From Hydrolagus affinis (lineage: Eukaryota), in contig JAAILG010000750.1 in assembly GCA_012026655.1 (NCBI GenBank), positions 1-64,000 on the forward strand: a stretch of 64,000 nt of DNA, written 5' to 3'. The position numbers were made by a program. Below, one piece after another: positions 1-21,300 of this stretch (positions are counted from its first letter, which is position 1; the number at the start of each line of letters is the position of its first letter).

Positions 1-3000
1 GGAGGAGAGAGACGGCTGGGGGGGTGGGGGGGGAGAGAGATGGCGGTGGGGGGGGGGTCGGGGGAGAGACGGGGTGGATGTGATAATATACAGATAGATA
101 GAGATGGGGGGGGATGTGAGAGAGACACAGACAGAAAAACACAGAGATGGAGAGAGTGAGAGACACAGAGAGAGAAAGATATTTACCTCCTGAGGAGATA
201 GGCCCCGAATGCGCGCGCATCCGGAACGCGCGCGCACTCCGATATCGGTATATCTCGATATGAGCCCATCGATATATCTAAAACGGAAAATTTCCATATC
301 GACAGACCCTACTAGAATGGTACCAGGATTGAGGGGCTTCAGTTATGAGGAAAGGCTAGATAGGCCAGAGAAGGTTGAGAGGAGACCTAATAGAGGTTTA
401 TAAAATCATGAGGGGATTCGACAGGGTGAATAAGGAAAAGCTGTTTCCACTAGTGGGCGAATCTGTGACTCGTGGTCACAGATTTAAAATAGTTTCAAAA
501 TGAAACAGAGGGGAGCTGAGGAGAAATTTTTTCACTCAGCGGATTGTTCGAATCTGGAATGCATTGCCTGAAAAGGTGGTGGAAGCTGATTCTAACAGCT
601 TTTAAAAGAGAATTAGATCTTTATTTAGGGAGAACAGGTCTGTTAGTTACAGGAAGAGAGCTGGGTAGTGGGATTGAGTTGCTCTTTTCAAAGAGCCAGC
701 ACAGACTGGATGGGCCAAATGGCCTCCTTTTGTGCCGTAAAATTGTATGATTCTATGATTCTATGTACTGTTACCTGATGTACTCTTGATGACAGGACAA
801 ATCTTACACAACAGAAGGCTGTGCTGAGTCCAACAGCCCTCCCAAGATCCATGCCTTGTATGTTTGTCCTAGCACACCATTCTGTTTCCACCTTAATTCC
901 CATTCAGCTCTTGAGGCTCATGAGAACATGTCAGTAAACCCAACACACACAAAAAAAGTGTTTCTTGAACTGGTAGAAGCAAGTGTTTGAACTTGTCATT
1001 TGCTTTCCTTTCTCCCTCACTTGCAAATTGCAAGCAGGTAAATTGCTCCCAGACTTTTGCCTAGATTAACTGTCCATCTGATTTTCCTATATCATCTTGT
1101 AGGGACCTACTTGTCCTTGCTTTGTAGGCTACCAACAAACGGACATTTGGAACTACCACTGTGCAGCCTCAAACAATATGCTTCCCGATTAGCAAAGGTA
1201 GTAGAATGGTTTGTTATTCATCTGGGCTGCATTAGTCATGTTGCAGTAAACATCCATTCTATAACAGAACACATAATTTTAAGGTAGAAAAATCGAGTCT
1301 TAAGGAGATCAGTGCAAGGTTCCCTTGTGGCTGAAGGGTCAGGTGGTCAGGAATTATCCCAATAGTAAACTCCAGCACAAGAGATAAATGCATAACATGG
1401 GATATCCACATGGTGGCCTCGGAACAGGACTATTCAAGATATTGTTTTCTTGTCGCTTGTTTCCGCTTTTAAATGAATGCAATATTTTTGATGAGAATAA
1501 CGAGGATGCAGATTGGTAAATTTTCTTGAGTTCTTAGAATAATCCTTCCCATTCCTGTTAATTTCTACCAATAGTTTATATTGCAATGGATAAAACTGTA
1601 CCAGAACATGCTGACAGGAGTCCTCTCAACAGGCTAGTGGTACTCGTGATTTAACTATGCAAATACTGCTGCTCATGAGTTAGCCTATTTATCCTGGATG
1701 AATACAATTCAAACCCGTGGATTTCAGTGCCTCGTAGCTGTAGTGATTAGCTTTGCTCCCACACATTCCAACACAGTGAGTTTTAGAACTCGCTTTCCCA
1801 TCAGGTGAAGGTCAGCTGGGTATGATGCTTGAGTAGGAAAATAAATCTTCGACTTTATATTGTTCCAGCTACTCTGCACAGCAGCATTTGCATACCTGTG
1901 GAAGCAGCTTTACCCATTGACACAGATGCACTGCAATTGAATAATCAATTTTATTAAACACCATATAGAATCCGCTGTAAAGCAAGTCTTTTTGTGCTGT
2001 GTTCTATTGTTGGTGGCTTAGGTGGTATAGTTCCAGCAGCTGTAGCCAGTGTCTATTAGTGTGTGGCTATCTCGATGATGTCAATTGACCCAATTATTCC
2101 ACTGAGACTAACCTGGACCATACCTAGTTTCGACATTTGTGTACTTTTAAGCAATCACTGAATACTGATGAGAAATGGGAACCCATTTCACTACCACTGC
2201 CTAGCTGTCCATTGAGTCCTAAATAAAGTGCTACTAATTTGTCCTTTCAGGTAAAATCCTCAACGATGATACCCAGATCAAAGATTACAAAATCGATGAG
2301 AAGAATTTCGTAGTGGTTATGGTAACGAAGGTAAATGAAATTGCGAGGGGTTTCTGGTGGGTGCTGTGAGTTAAAGCTGTCCTACTTTTTTCAGCCTAAA
2401 TTTGAATCTATTCCAAACAACACATCAGTACCTGTTTCTGCTAGCTATGTGGGTGCAATCTCAGATAGGACTAACTGGCAGTGTCATTCTGGCAGTATGG
2501 AGGGTTGGAGTCGAAATATTGCTGGTGTAGTTGGAAGTTGCAAGCAGGTTGAATGTGTATTCTGAGACTGCGCTCATGTCAAATGTGTTGCATTATTGGT
2601 GTTGATGTAATTCGGTTGTGACATTAAACCGATGTTCCATCTGTCTGTCCAAGTGGATGTTAAAAGTCTCAGAATATTATTAGAGAAGAGAAAGGTTTCT
2701 CTTGGCCAACAATTCTCCAGATAAGAGATGTTTGTTTATTTAATTGGATTTCCAATTGGAATCAAAGGCTATCTATTCTCTCTGGCATTTTATCCATTGG
2801 TGTCATCACTGAAGGAGGAGTTTTGATTTTGTTTGTGTATGTATTCAATGCATTTGACTTGATCGTAAACCTTTATTGCTTTTAAACAGCCTAAAGCAGC
2901 TTCTGTGCCTATACAGCCCTTGGCGCAGGCTTCTCCATCACCTACTCCAGCAAGTACCACAGCCGGTGCCTCCACCACAACCTCTACCCCTGCACCAGCC

Positions 3001-3243
3001 CCAGCTGCTGTTGTCCCTGCACCAACACTGGCACCAGTACCAGCCCCAGTTCCAGCATCAGAGCCTTCCAGTACAGCCACAGAGGAAAAGCCAAAGGAAG
3101 AAGAAACGAAAGAAGAAAGCAGCGCCACTCCTGAAGCAGCCCCAAGGTACAGGCCTGAGGGCTCCAGGGTTTCTGAGACACCCATCTCTAAGGTGGAGAA
3201 AAGCAGTAGGACTCCAGGCAGTTTTGGGGGACATTTTTTGATA

Positions 3244-18300: not shown

Positions 18301-21300
18301 TTCCCTCTGCCTCGCCCCCTCCCTGGCCTCCTTCAAGTAGCGCCTCAAGACCCGTCCTCTTCAACGGTGCCATTGGTCACCCGAAAACCCCCCCTTTCCT
18401 TCCCCCCTCCCCGTCCCTGACCTCAGCTCGGTTCTGAAACAATGACTGTCCAGGGGCTTGGGACGTTCTCCTGAACTGAAAGGCGCTGTCTGTACAAGTG
18501 TCATTTTGTTGTTGTTGTTGCTGAATTCCATTGACAACAATCAACACACGTGGGAGGAGGAGGTGGGGAAGAGCAATAGCTTACGCTGGGTGCGTGCGTG
18601 CCCTTGCGTGATGACGTCGGGGAGCTCCGCCACCACGTGACCTACGACGCCCAGTGACGGCGACGACGCTGCCCCCGCCGCCCCGCATGCGCATTGACGC
18701 TGCGTCTCGAGCGCAGGTGGCGGCGGCGGCCAGTACGCGGCTCCTGCTCCCGGCTTCCCGCTCCCGGCTTCCCTCCCTCCTCCTGAAAATGGCGGCGCTT
18801 GTCTCACTCACTCAGGTACACACCGAGGGCGACCCCTGACCGTGAGGCGGGGTGGGGATGAGGGGGGGTGGGGGTGGAGAGTGCGGTGGCGAACGAGAGA
18901 GAGAAGAAAGAGACCGAGCAGTGAGTGGTAAAAGGCAGCCAAGCGTTGATTGTCCTTCCCCCCCCCCGCGAGCTCGAGCAATAATACTGTAGCGGAAGGA
19001 AGAGGCGGAGGTGGGGGGGTTGTGGGGGTGAAAGGGACGAAGCGTCACCGCGGGCTGCGGAGGCGCTAGGCCACGGGAGGGCGGGCGGGCAGCCACACAG
19101 TCAGTCAGTCAGTCACCGGCTCGTTGAGTGCAGGCGGACCCCTCGGCCCCGCGCCGGCACAGGGTGTGAGCCCGCCCCGGCTACACTACTTTGTGACCGT
19201 GAGTGGGTGGGTGGGAGCAATCGGCCGGCCCGCCTTCCCTCCCTCCCTCCCTCCCTCATTGCCGGCGGCTCCGGCTGTCAAGAGATATTAAGGCGGAATC
19301 GACCGAGGCTACACCGACCAGTTTTTGTTGGTGGGGGGTGGGAGGAAGGGAGTAAATGACCTGTCTGTGCCAGGGGGTTGTGACTGCTGTACCTGGGGAG
19401 CGAATGTATGTATGAATTGTGTGGTGCGGCACGTTTGATGTCTAGGTCAAACCTGAGACTGTCTTGTGTGTGTGTGTGTGTCTCTCTCTCTCTGATCACT
19501 TGTCACAAAGACATGTCGCCTTCTTTGTGTTTTCTGAGAAAGTTGCCCATGGTTGATGATTGTCACCTTCTTGAAACTTCCTATTGGGAAGAAAGGGGCA
19601 CAGAAGCTGATGTGTGAAGCGAGGGAAGCTGCTGTCTCAAATGTTTGTATCATATCTATATATGTAGTTATATAGTTATAGTGCCTGGTCTGTTAAAGCA
19701 GCATTTTAAACTTTTTTTATCCTGACTACGGGTTATCATAGTTCAGTGAGTATAGTGCAGACTGACACTTTGGCATGGCACTGATTTATTTTGGTCCATG
19801 TAGTTTTTTTTTACGTGTCGAGTCTTCAACCGTGCCATCGGACAGTCCCCTTCTCGCCACCCTCACCGATCTTGACCCCCAGCTCGGGTCCTAACAGTCC
19901 AGCTCCTTGGGATATCCTCCCAACGTGAAAGGCGTTATACAAATGTAATTTTGTTGTTCTAGTTGACTGGTGGCTGTTTGATTGTATATCCAAGCCCAAT
20001 CCTGTTCTCAACTGGTGCCTGCAATTCCACCAGGAGTCACAGAGTAGCTGATTCTACATTTCCCAGTGTTTGAGAATACTGAAGACTGTTGTGTCAGCAC
20101 CCTCTCCTTCGTCTGTCCAACTCAGCACAGGTTAAGAATCGAGGTAATTCAGTGCCATATCTTGTGGTGCTGTTAATCAGAGTCTTTAGAGAAGCTTCTA
20201 ATTTGTTTTAATCTGATGTGAAAGAGCAGGCAAGGCCAAGAGAACATGCTGATTGTAAATGGCCAGAGCTATTCGTAGGTTAGTAGGACACTGAAATGCC
20301 GGACTCTTCCTCCAAAAGTGGTACTTGGCAACATTATCAATGAGGATTTACATTGCCATAAATGGAGCTCATTCAGCAGGTTAGCTGAATATTTATGTTA
20401 GAAGTCCCTGGAAGTGCAATACATACGAAGTCGACACAGAAGATCATTGTAATCTTATTTACCAAGTGGGAGTGGTTTCATTTGCAAAGGAGTGCTTCAA
20501 ATATTGGATTTTGACTTGCAACATCCATTGCACCTTTTAGATGCAACAATTACTCATTTTATGGTACTTCATGATCATGCTTTGCACATATGGTTTGCAA
20601 TGGCTTGGCCTGAAGTTAGGAAATTAATGAGAGTGTTGCAGATGATAGATTTAAAAATAACCAAATTTAAAGCTCATTTGGCCAAATCTGTGTAGGAGAC
20701 CTGATTTGAATCCATGATTTTCTGTGTTCTGGAGGTTTCAATGGTATATCTGCTGTCACTTAAATAATCAAAAAGTATTTGACAAAGTTCCATGCAGGAA
20801 TCTACAATTGAAAAGTTAACAAATTGGTTGCATTTGCAAACTAGTTAAGCAGCAATAACAACAAAATTGCATTTGTTTATCGCCTTTCACGTTGAGAGGA
20901 TGTTCCTGGATAATAAGTGTTTTGGAACAAAGCTGGGGGTCGGGATCAGGGAAGGTGCGGGGGTGGGAACGGAGGGTGATCGAAGGCATGGTTGAAGAGG
21001 AGGCTCTTGAAGGAGGGAAGGGGCAGGTGGAGAGACTGCGGTGCGGGGTGGAGGTCCAAAGAGTGGCTGAAGGTGGGGCAGGTGAGGTGAGGGATGTGAA
21101 GCGGGCCAGAGTCTGGTGAGTGGAGGGCAGGTTGGTAGGAGGTTAGGAGTTCGCAGAGGTAGTGTGGAGCAAGGCCATGGAGGACTTTGAAGGTGAGGAC
21201 AAAGATCTTGAAATCTATCCTCTGTGAGAATCCAGTGGAACCGGGCGAGGATAAGATCACGGAGCCTGATGTGGGAGAGCTCTGGGTGATCTGCAGCCTT

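What the first reader, a model, noticed from the sequence alone, without database searches (positions are those of the whole stretch)
2251..18815. RAD23 gene directly upstream of EPS15L1 may be a third RAD23 ohnologue lost in mammals
Seen: an intact RAD23 ends ~7 kb before the EPS15L1 ATG on the same strand. Its sequence mixes diagnostic features as I recall the human proteins: B-like GKILNDD, EREQV, SFNNPDR, FPEG, LLQQNF; A-like EYLLT, MRQVIQQ, LLQQLG, terminal DDE; it has no B-type poly-Gly linker. Recalled human synteny: CALR-RAD23A near KLF1, RAD23B next to KLF4, and CALR3-EPS15L1-KLF2 with no RAD23 between them. Inference: an ancestral CALR-RAD23-EPS15-KLF block was duplicated in the vertebrate genome duplications, and this gene is the RAD23 of the CALR3/EPS15L1/KLF2 copy, retained here and lost in mammals.
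Basis: partly seen in the sequence, partly recalled or inferred. Interest (0 to 1): 0.7.

Follow-up and report, generated by a model that had tools for sequence, protein, structure and literature searches.

The report
Fish-type RAD23 gene beside EPS15L1
A chimaera genome carries, just upstream of an EPS15-family gene, the RAD23 DNA-repair/proteasome-shuttle gene that fish databases call rad23ab; it is probably an old third RAD23 copy that land vertebrates lost, but this is not proven.

Summary
The observation largely holds. Eight RAD23 exons lie at 2251-11819 (+). The gene is not intact in the window: the first 49 residues (two UBL exons) lie beyond the left edge. The window is not human. It comes from a chimaera close to Callorhinchus milii (319/329 exon residues identical to its 'RAD23 homolog B').

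The gene is already annotated. It belongs to a well-supported clade (100/97) of cartilaginous-fish and ray-finned-fish genes, which gar and teleost records name rad23ab. Placing it as the RAD23B orthologue is rejected (AU p=8e-5). Placing it as the fish RAD23A orthologue is weakened but not excluded (p=0.09 with all columns, 0.02 with domain columns). Fused gene models in a skate and a teleost show a calreticulin gene directly upstream.

Together with the recalled human order CALR3-EPS15L1, the third-ohnologue reading is the best explanation (about 0.55). I could not count RAD23 loci, obtain named fish RAD23A or RAD23B, or type the upstream calreticulin. No paper stating this was found. Interest is modest.

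The parts
2251..2330 (+). RAD23 exon, C-terminal third of the ubiquitin-like domain. It begins with 2 bases of a Gly codon and corresponds to P0002 residues 50-76.
   Evidence: AG/GT borders; Pfam ubiquitin positions 46-70/72; tblastn; 26/26 identical to C. milii.
2890..3146 (+). RAD23 linker exon (Pro/Ala/Thr-rich, 85 aa)
   Evidence: Borders; no Pfam family; 89.4% identical to C. milii.
4982..5037 (+). Small RAD23 exon before UBA1
   Evidence: Borders; 19/19 match to P0002 residues 162-180.
5996..6123 (+). RAD23 exon, UBA1 domain
   Evidence: Borders; Pfam UBA E 3.9e-14; PDB RAD23B 68 bits, RAD23A 62 bits.
7284..7377 (+). RAD23 linker exon 2
   Evidence: Borders; tblastn; 96.8% identical to C. 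milii.
8461..8588 (+). RAD23 exon, XPC-binding (STI1-like) domain
   Evidence: Borders; Pfam XPC-binding E 5.7e-17; PDB.
9298..9441 (+). RAD23 exon: end of the XPC-binding domain plus a short acidic/Gly linker without a poly-Gly run
   Evidence: Borders; 100% identical to C. milii P0001/P0002.
11706..11819 (+). Last RAD23 exon, UBA2 domain and TGA stop
   Evidence: Borders; Pfam UBA E 2.3e-8; PDB.
11820..18788 (.). RAD23 3' flank and intergenic stretch of 6,969 bp, with repeat-like open frames on both strands. The end near 18 kb is CpG-rich.
   Evidence: No gene searched for here beyond the ORF listing.
18789..18815 (+). First coding exon (ATG) of the EPS15-family gene
   Evidence: ATG followed by GT donor; G+C 0.569 at 18001-20000.
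44915..46112 (+). EPS15-family exons 44915-44956 and 46023-46112 (start of EH1)
   Evidence: AG/GT flanks; no Pfam hit for the 30-aa piece.
49706..50862 (+). EPS15-family in-frame pieces 49706-49750 and 49951-50046 (borders not checked) and exon 50800-50862
51331..53349 (+). EH2 exons 51331-51456 and 53290-53349. The intron between them holds the 100-N gap at 52930-53029, which I left unfilled.
   Evidence: Pfam EH 4.5e-9 and 2.8e-6; PDB EPS15 EH2, 21/29 identical.
54832..62814 (+). Further EPS15-family pieces: 54832-54924 onward, about 56016-56171 and about 58948-59098 (EH3), and 62653-62814 (start of the coiled coil). The gene runs off the right edge.
   Evidence: Pfam EH; PDB EPS15 EH3, 33/49 identical.

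Best explanation
The window holds exons 3-10 of a chimaera RAD23 gene. RAD23 is a UBL-UBA1-XPC-binding-UBA2 protein that shuttles ubiquitylated proteins to the proteasome and stabilises XPC in nucleotide excision repair. This function is inferred from the family and was not tested here.

The gene is the orthologue of what NCBI calls 'RAD23 homolog B(-like)' in cartilaginous fishes and 'rad23ab' in gar and teleosts. This lineage (clade C) is most likely a third product of the early vertebrate genome duplications: the RAD23 copy of the calreticulin(CALR3)-RAD23-EPS15L1 block, sister or close to RAD23A. It is kept in cartilaginous and ray-finned fishes and lost in the lineage leading to tetrapods, which would leave CALR3 next to EPS15L1.

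Shown: the domains, the clade, the rejection of RAD23B orthology, and the adjacency to an EPS15-family gene here and to a calreticulin gene in two other species.
Inferred: that the split from RAD23A was a duplication rather than a speciation, that the upstream calreticulin is of CALR3 type, and the loss in tetrapods.
For: - Domains were found exon by exon.
- Nearest proteins: C. milii at 100% in exon 9298-9441; sharks and rays 90-92%; bowfin 85%; gar rad23ab 83%; then about 100 teleost rows, mostly named rad23ab. None of the named rows among the 120 listed is sarcopterygian (264 hits, 120 listed).
- Careful tree of 45 proteins: clade C (6 chondrichthyan + 14 actinopterygian rows) 100/97; RAD23B group 98/96; A-like group 95/91.
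- The same clade C gets 98/97 on 251 conserved-domain columns.
- AU tests: ray-finned C held with sarcopterygian RAD23B, p 8.3e-5. Ray-finned C held with A-like, delta lnL 13.0, p 0.091, and delta lnL 11.9, p 0.019 on domain columns.
- Per exon, ray-finned clade C is closer than sarcopterygian RAD23B in 6 of 8 exons.
- Two of the 120 rows are fused gene models with a calreticulin domain in front of this RAD23 type. One is Rhinoraja P0009, with calreticulin at residues 3-405 and RAD23 at 474-876. The other is Chaetodon P0063.
- Zebrafish has calr on chromosome 8 apart from calr3a and calr3b on chromosomes 22 and 2 (PMC5098260, passages). calr3a/b are called CALR3 orthologues in PMC6189092 (passage).
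- Zebrafish also has genes named rad23aa (PMC5570503, passage) and rad23b (PMC4201762, passages), so teleosts carry three named RAD23 genes.
- Recalled, not tested: in human, CALR3 lies directly upstream of EPS15L1 on the same strand with no RAD23 between them, and CALR lies directly upstream of RAD23A.
Against: - No genome was shown to hold A-, B- and C-type genes together.
- The A-like group consists of three unnamed representatives. Two look mammalian. P0148 is of unknown taxon, and only a fish origin of P0148 would prove co-occurrence.
- With all columns the RAD23A-orthologue topology is not rejected (p 0.091), and A plus C as sisters is as good as the best tree (delta lnL 0.6, p 0.36).
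- The groups tested were named after the first tree was seen, and the A-like rows sit on long branches.
- Three signature columns join ray-finned C with A only, and 3 join all of C with A, against 2 that join A with B.
- The taxon ranges of C (cartilaginous and ray-finned fishes) and of the named A/B rows (lobe-finned fishes and tetrapods) are complementary in my sample, which is what plain orthology would also give.
- With P0002 as query, no second chondrichthyan RAD23 appeared among the best 120 (cut-off 481 bits; coelacanth RAD23B scored 501).
- Official fish nomenclature treats the gene as a RAD23A co-orthologue.
- CALR versus CALR3 identity of the upstream gene is untested.
Confidence: 0.55

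Rival explanations
1. Clade C is simply the RAD23A orthologue of cartilaginous and ray-finned fishes, as the name rad23ab implies. Tetrapod RAD23A evolved fast and is pulled out of the clade in trees. Teleost rad23aa/rad23ab would be teleost-specific duplicates. The ancestral order was CALR-RAD23A-EPS15L1, and rearrangements in the tetrapod line separated them.
For: - Names given by NCBI/ZFIN-derived annotation.
- A calreticulin gene sits directly upstream on the same strand, as I recall for human CALR-RAD23A.
- A plus C as sisters costs only 0.6 lnL (p 0.36).
- The nested topology is not rejected with all columns (p 0.091).
- Three columns are shared by ray-finned C and A only.
- The taxon ranges of C and the A-like rows are complementary in my sample.
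- A-like branches are long (0.26-1.23).
Against: - Chondrichthyan plus actinopterygian C excludes A with 100/97 and 98/97 support.
- The nested topology has p 0.019 on domain columns.
- At 12 conserved columns A differs from C, which equals B. The outgroup has a consensus at 7 of these and agrees with C=B at 5.
- No row named rad23aa ('protein a') appears among the 120 best matches to a C-type exon, although about 100 teleost rows do.
- No slowly evolving coelacanth C-like protein appears, although coelacanth RAD23B does.
- This reading needs CALR3 to have come to lie, by chance, exactly where calreticulin-RAD23 sits relative to EPS15L1 (human order recalled).
Confidence: 0.3
2. The gene is the cartilaginous-fish RAD23B orthologue, as NCBI names it in Callorhinchus milii and Amblyraja radiata.
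For: - Source names.
- Human RAD23B scores higher than RAD23A against P0002 (482.7 vs 417.2 bits).
- No other chondrichthyan RAD23B-like protein appears among the best 120.
Against: - Holding ray-finned C with sarcopterygian RAD23B costs 54.4 lnL, p-AU 8.3e-5.
- Three unnamed RAD23B-like sequences branch beside sarcopterygian RAD23B and outside clade C (98/96).
- The higher score to RAD23B reflects shared ancestral states.
- There is no poly-Gly linker.
- The neighbour is an EPS15-family gene. As I recall, human RAD23B lies near KLF4 and not near an EPS15 gene.
Confidence: 0.05
3. Clade C arose by some other duplication, for example a tandem or segmental copy older or younger than the two genome duplications, and its place beside EPS15L1 says nothing about paralogons.
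For: The order of the A, B and C branches is unresolved (A+B 88/62; polytomy).
Against: - Clade C holds both cartilaginous and bony fishes, so it predates their split.
- Vertebrate RAD23 is one clade against nine non-vertebrate-looking representatives (100/99). This fits a duplication on the vertebrate stem.
Confidence: 0.1

Closest known systems
rad23ab of ray-finned fishes ('RAD23 homolog A, nucleotide excision repair protein b', e.g. Lepisosteus oculatus P0012) and 'RAD23 homolog B(-like)' of sharks, rays and Callorhinchus milii
   Same: Same clade (100/97). Same four domains. C. milii is identical at 319 of 329 exon residues. A calreticulin gene lies upstream in a skate and a teleost.
   Different: The window's linker exon differs from C. 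milii at 9 of 85 residues, so it is a close relative and not the same sequence. Teleost members carry much longer linkers (450-500 aa against 382).
Human/tetrapod RAD23B (hHR23B)
   Same: Same domain order. The UBA1, XPC-binding and UBA2 exons are nearly identical (68, 67 and 68 bits). It is the best-scoring solved relative of P0002.
   Different: Separate clade (AU p 8.3e-5). There is no poly-Gly linker. The neighbours differ (recalled).
Human/mammalian RAD23A (hHR23A)
   Same: Same domain order. Shared states at 3 signature columns. A calreticulin gene upstream of both (human order recalled). A sister relation is not rejected.
   Different: RAD23A-like rows differ at 12 conserved columns where this gene keeps the state of RAD23B. 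Lower score (417 vs 483 bits). The nested orthologue topology is disfavoured.
Yeast Rad23
   Same: Founding member of the family. The UBA2 exon matches it (30.8 bits).
   Different: Distant relative and a single-copy gene.

Membership tests
RAD23 family (UBL-UBA shuttle / XPC partner) | N-terminal ubiquitin-like domain | tested here: inconclusive
   Only the last 26 residues are in the window (Pfam ubiquitin positions 46-70/72, E 3.7e-4, below the cut-off). Residues 1-49 are absent from the window. The C. milii orthologue has the full domain.
RAD23 family (UBL-UBA shuttle / XPC partner) | Two UBA domains flanking an XPC-binding domain | tested here: met
   UBA 3.9e-14, XPC-binding 5.7e-17 and UBA 2.3e-8, in that order on the + strand. 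PDB matches to RAD23A/B.
Clade C (fish rad23ab lineage) | Groups with gar/teleost rad23ab and shark/ray genes to the exclusion of other RAD23 | tested here: met
   100/97 and 98/97 on domain columns. The proxy row is C. milii P0002, 97% identical to the window's exons. The window's own exons were not joined into a row.
RAD23B orthologue group | Groups with sarcopterygian RAD23B in species-tree position | tested here: not met
   AU p 8.3e-5, delta lnL 54.4.
RAD23B orthologue group | Poly-Gly stretch in the linker before UBA2 (a feature as recalled for human RAD23B; it is seen in coelacanth P0121 before the XPC-binding domain and in unnamed P0122 before UBA2) | tested here: not met
   Exon 9298-9441 has no Gly run.
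RAD23A orthologue group | Groups with RAD23A in species-tree position (beside ray-finned fishes, inside clade C) | tested here: inconclusive
   p 0.091 with all columns and 0.019 with domain columns. A+C as sisters p 0.36. The A-like rows are unnamed and on long branches.
RAD23A orthologue group | RAD23A signature residues in UBA1 and the XPC-binding domain | tested here: not met
   At 12 columns the A-like rows differ from C, which equals B. The window's exons carry the C=B state. These may be derived only in the tetrapod branch.
Third 2R ohnologue ('RAD23C') | A-, B- and C-type genes present together in a genome without the teleost duplication | not testable with these tools
   No eukaryote genome collection is on hand.
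Third 2R ohnologue ('RAD23C') | Lies in the CALR3-EPS15L1-KLF2 block, distinct from the CALR-RAD23A block | tested here: inconclusive
   An EPS15-family gene lies 6,969 bp downstream. A calreticulin gene lies upstream in a skate and a teleost. The CALR3 versus CALR type, the EPS15L1 versus EPS15 label and KLF2 were not tested. The window ends inside the EPS15-family gene.
EPS15/EPS15L1 family (downstream gene) | Three N-terminal EH domains followed by a coiled coil | tested here: met
   Pfam EH on 4 of the 8 exon pieces scanned. PDB EPS15 EH2 and EH3 are the best hits. The EH1 pieces gave no Pfam hit.

The most novel reading that the evidence does not exclude
Vertebrates began with three surviving RAD23 ohnologues. 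The third ('RAD23C', now mislabelled rad23ab in bony fishes and RAD23B-like in sharks) is the 2R sister of RAD23A. It sits between a CALR3-type calreticulin gene and EPS15L1. It survives in cartilaginous and ray-finned fishes and was deleted on the way to tetrapods, leaving the mammalian CALR3-EPS15L1 adjacency as its scar. If so, zebrafish rad23ab has no mammalian counterpart.
Probability: 0.55. Interest if true: 0.4.

Novelty: new member of a known kind. Interest (0 to 1): 0.35.

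Why it matters
RAD23A and RAD23B are treated as the complete vertebrate set in work on nucleotide excision repair and proteasome shuttling. If fishes and sharks keep a third, slowly evolving copy, three things follow:
- The fish name rad23ab implies an orthology to RAD23A that may be wrong.
- Knock-out and redundancy studies in zebrafish must count three lineages.
- The locus becomes a clean, datable example of an 'ohnologue gone missing' that ties the two calreticulin blocks of human 19p to separate paralogons.

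It does not change what RAD23 proteins are thought to do.

Tried and rejected
1. Spliced model. I did not search a spliced model of the window's gene. Searches were made exon by exon. The database protein P0002 of C. milii served as the full-length stand-in.

The Atlas gave only phylum-level taxa: P0125's nearest cluster is an unnamed chordate RAD23 cluster and P0148's is a 'RAD23 homolog A' cluster. The taxa of P0148, P0125, P0122 and P0159 stay unknown.

3. Fetching shark or gar RAD23A/B. The coelacanth query returned only RAD23B of tetrapods. The C. milii query returned clade C and tetrapod RAD23B. Both lists stop at 120 rows.

4. Signature columns are too few to decide: 24 informative columns.

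5. CALR versus CALR3 for the upstream gene. PDB holds calreticulin but no CALR3.

6. Papers. Ten searches found no paper on a third vertebrate RAD23 lineage, on fish rad23ab, or on CALR3 as an ohnologue. Figure 1b of PMC5098260 (synteny map) and all supplements could not be seen and may list the rad23 neighbours.

7. Rfam and tRNA scans found only one tRNA-like element.

8. Not used: complex prediction, structure prediction, and the closed collections (metagenome contigs, viral contigs). Genome contigs holds only bacteria and archaea and was not searched.

9. Early trees. The FastTree and the quick trees were superseded by the careful tree. Five long or pseudogene-like rows (P0131, P0137, P0169, P0173, P0180) that were were left out afterwards.

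Full report
**What is in the window.**
On the + strand I read eight RAD23 exons with AG/GT borders: 2251-2330, 2890-3146, 4982-5037, 5996-6123, 7284-7377, 8461-8588, 9298-9441 and 11706-11819, with TGA at 11817-11819.

Scanned one exon at a time against Pfam (7 translations, the 18-aa exon being too short), they give:
- the last third of a ubiquitin-like domain (profile positions 46-70 of 72; E 3.7e-4, below the curated cut-off);
- UBA (3.9e-14);
- XPC-binding (5.7e-17, with its tail on the next exon at 1.9e-3);
- UBA (2.3e-8).

The two linker exons match no family. The solved structures of human RAD23A and RAD23B are the best PDB matches of the UBA1, XPC-binding and UBA2 exons.

The gene is not whole in the window. 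tblastn with the Callorhinchus milii protein P0002 finds residues 50-382 in these eight exons, but nothing for residues 1-49 in bases 1-2250. Two coding exons must lie beyond the left edge.

**The downstream gene.**
An ATG at 18789 opens a 27-base exon followed by GT. It lies 6,969 bp after the RAD23 stop, in the window's most G+C-rich stretch (0.569).

Eleven further in-frame pieces follow up to 62814. Four of the eight pieces scanned match the Pfam EH domain. The EH2 and EH3 pieces match human EPS15 in PDB at 21/29 and 33/49 identical residues. So this is an EPS15-family gene with its 5' half in the window.

That it is EPS15L1 rather than EPS15 agrees with my recall of the human proteins. 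No named EPS15L1 sequence was available to test it.

A gap of 100 N (52930-53029) lies in one of its introns and was left as it is.

**Whose DNA.**
I do not take the window for human. Exon 9298-9441 is 100% identical to 'RAD23 homolog B isoform X1/X2' of Callorhinchus milii. Over all eight exons, compared separately, 319 of 329 residues are identical. Nine of the ten differences fall in the 85-aa linker exon. The window therefore comes from a chimaera close to C. milii, but not from the sequence that gave that record.

**How I searched.**
Where a full-length query was needed I used the database protein P0002 of C. milii.

**Relatives.**
The exon search (264 proteins with E <= 0.001, 120 listed) gave, in order:
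- C. milii;
- eight shark and ray rows named 'RAD23 homolog B-like', 'A-like', 'B' or uncharacterized (90-92%);
- bowfin (85%);
- gar 'RAD23 homolog A, nucleotide excision repair protein b' (83%);
- sturgeons, paddlefish and bichirs, and about 100 teleost rows, mostly named rad23ab.

None of the named rows is from a lobe-finned fish or a tetrapod. Eleven rows have no name. One row labelled Lampetra planeri looks like the teleost type.

With P0002 as query (120 of 4,106 listed), the eight chondrichthyan rows come first. Sturgeon follows, then coelacanth RAD23B (501 bits), then tetrapod RAD23B down to 481 bits. No second chondrichthyan RAD23 appears.

The coelacanth query returned RAD23B from tetrapods only.

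The search of cluster representatives (7,181 hits, 150 listed, no names) added:
- three RAD23B-like sequences (P0122, P0125, P0159);
- RAD23A-like sequences. P0129 and P0156 look mammalian. P0169 and P0173 look like translated pseudogenes.
- P0148, a non-mammal sequence that scores higher to human RAD23A than to RAD23B (305.7 vs 280.8 bits). Its nearest Atlas cluster is called RAD23 homolog A.

**Trees.**
From the 429 proteins on hand I took 45:
- 20 of the fish type (clade C);
- 10 named sarcopterygian RAD23B;
- 3 unnamed B-like;
- 3 unnamed A-like;
- 9 more distant unnamed representatives as outgroup.

Five long or pseudogene-like rows that were in the quick tree were left out.

| Group | Careful tree (bootstrap/SH-aLRT) | Domain columns only (251) |
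|---|---|---|
| Vertebrate RAD23 as one clade | 100/99 | 100/99 |
| Clade C (chondrichthyans + ray-finned fishes) | 100/97 | 98/97 |
| Chondrichthyans within C | 100/100 | 100/99 |
| Ray-finned fishes within C | 100/97 | 96/97 |
| RAD23B group | 98/96 | unresolved (polytomy) |
| A-like group | 95/91 | 94/85 |
| A joined to B | 88/62 | not resolved |

AU tests:

| Rows held together | delta lnL | p-AU |
|---|---|---|
| Ray-finned C + sarcopterygian RAD23B | 54.4 | 8.3e-5 |
| Ray-finned C + A-like, all columns | 13.0 | 0.091 |
| Ray-finned C + A-like, domain columns | 11.9 | 0.019 |
| A-like + all of C as sisters | 0.6 | 0.36 |

These groups were named after the first tree had been seen, and the A-like rows sit on long branches. 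The p-values are therefore generous to my reading.

**The 'mixed' motifs.**
24 alignment columns split the groups.
- In 12, clade C agrees with RAD23B against the A-like rows. The outgroup has a consensus at 7 of these and sides with C and B at 5. These are mostly ancestral states that the RAD23A line changed.
- Three columns join C with A.
- Two join A with B.
- Three join only ray-finned C with A.

The gene is simply conservative.

**Neighbours.**
Two of the 120 rows are gene models that run a complete calreticulin into this RAD23 type:
- Rhinoraja P0009, with calreticulin at residues 3-405 and RAD23 at 474-876;
- Chaetodon P0063.

A calreticulin gene therefore lies directly upstream, on the same strand, in a skate and in a teleost. 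Here an EPS15-family gene lies directly downstream.

From the papers:
- Zebrafish has calr on chromosome 8 and calr3a and calr3b on chromosomes 22 and 2, all syntenic with human 19p13 (PMC5098260, passages).
- calr3a/b are called the CALR3 orthologues (PMC6189092, passage).
- Zebrafish genes named rad23aa and rad23b exist (PMC5570503 and PMC4201762, passages).

I recall, but could not test, that in human CALR3 lies directly upstream of EPS15L1 on the same strand, and CALR directly upstream of RAD23A.

If that is right, calreticulin-RAD23-EPS15L1 in fishes is collinear with CALR3-EPS15L1 in human minus one gene.

I could not tell whether the fused calreticulins are of the CALR or the CALR3 type, because PDB has no CALR3.

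**Verdict.**
- The gene is already annotated. It is a member of the lineage called rad23ab in bony fishes.
- It is not the RAD23B orthologue.
I put this at about 0.55.
- The rival reading is that it is the fish RAD23A orthologue and that tetrapod RAD23A ran fast. I put this at about 0.3. The tree tests weaken this rival but do not exclude it.
- What would settle it could not be done here: a count of RAD23 loci in genomes without the teleost duplication, the placement of fish rad23aa, and the typing of the upstream calreticulin.

**Function.**
The function is inferred from the family only. The UBL domain docks at the proteasome, the UBA domains bind ubiquitin chains, and the XPC-binding domain holds XPC (and PNGase). 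This is what is known of RAD23A/B. Nothing in the exons suggests a departure from this.

**Literature.**
Ten full-text searches found no paper that describes a third vertebrate RAD23 lineage or discusses fish rad23ab.

Noticed in passing
window 29649-29720 (+): A tRNA-like sequence (tRNA-Ile, anticodon TAT; Rfam tRNA 40 bits) inside the long first intron of the EPS15-family gene. It is probably the head of a tRNA-derived SINE rather than a working tRNA gene.
   Followed up: partly
window, e.g. 27216-27479 (-), 27730-27981 (-), 29507-29965 (-), 43455-43769 (-), 45251-45490 (-), 62819-63055 (+): Many open frames share the same translated motif, which indicates a high-copy dispersed repeat scattered through the introns.
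   Followed up: no
window 1-400, 9900-10130, 23916-24392: Three stretches give very similar odd translations on both strands. They are copies of another repeat. The first 77 bases also hold a G-rich 28-29-bp tandem repeat.
   Followed up: no
window 34358-34732 (+), 20946-21539 (-), 17896-18165 (+): Open frames that look like fragments of retrotransposon (LINE/SINE tail) coding sequence, in the EPS15-family intron and just upstream of its promoter. The label is from recall and was not searched.
   Followed up: no
window 52930-53029: Assembly gap of 100 N inside an intron of the EPS15-family gene, between exons 51331-51456 and 53290-53349. Left unfilled.
   Followed up: yes
P0009 (Rhinoraja longicauda, 876 aa) and P0063 (Chaetodon trifascialis, 909 aa): Public gene models that fuse a complete calreticulin (with its KDEL) to a complete RAD23. 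They are almost certainly read-through annotation errors, but they are useful as evidence of gene order.
   Followed up: partly
P0073, labelled Lampetra planeri: A protein labelled as lamprey has the N-terminus and linkers of the teleost rad23ab type. This may be contamination or mislabelling in the source record.
   Followed up: no
P0169, P0173, P0137 (unnamed representatives): These look like translations of decayed retrocopies of mammalian RAD23A and RAD23B. They inflate the number of 'RAD23' clusters in the representative library.
   Followed up: no
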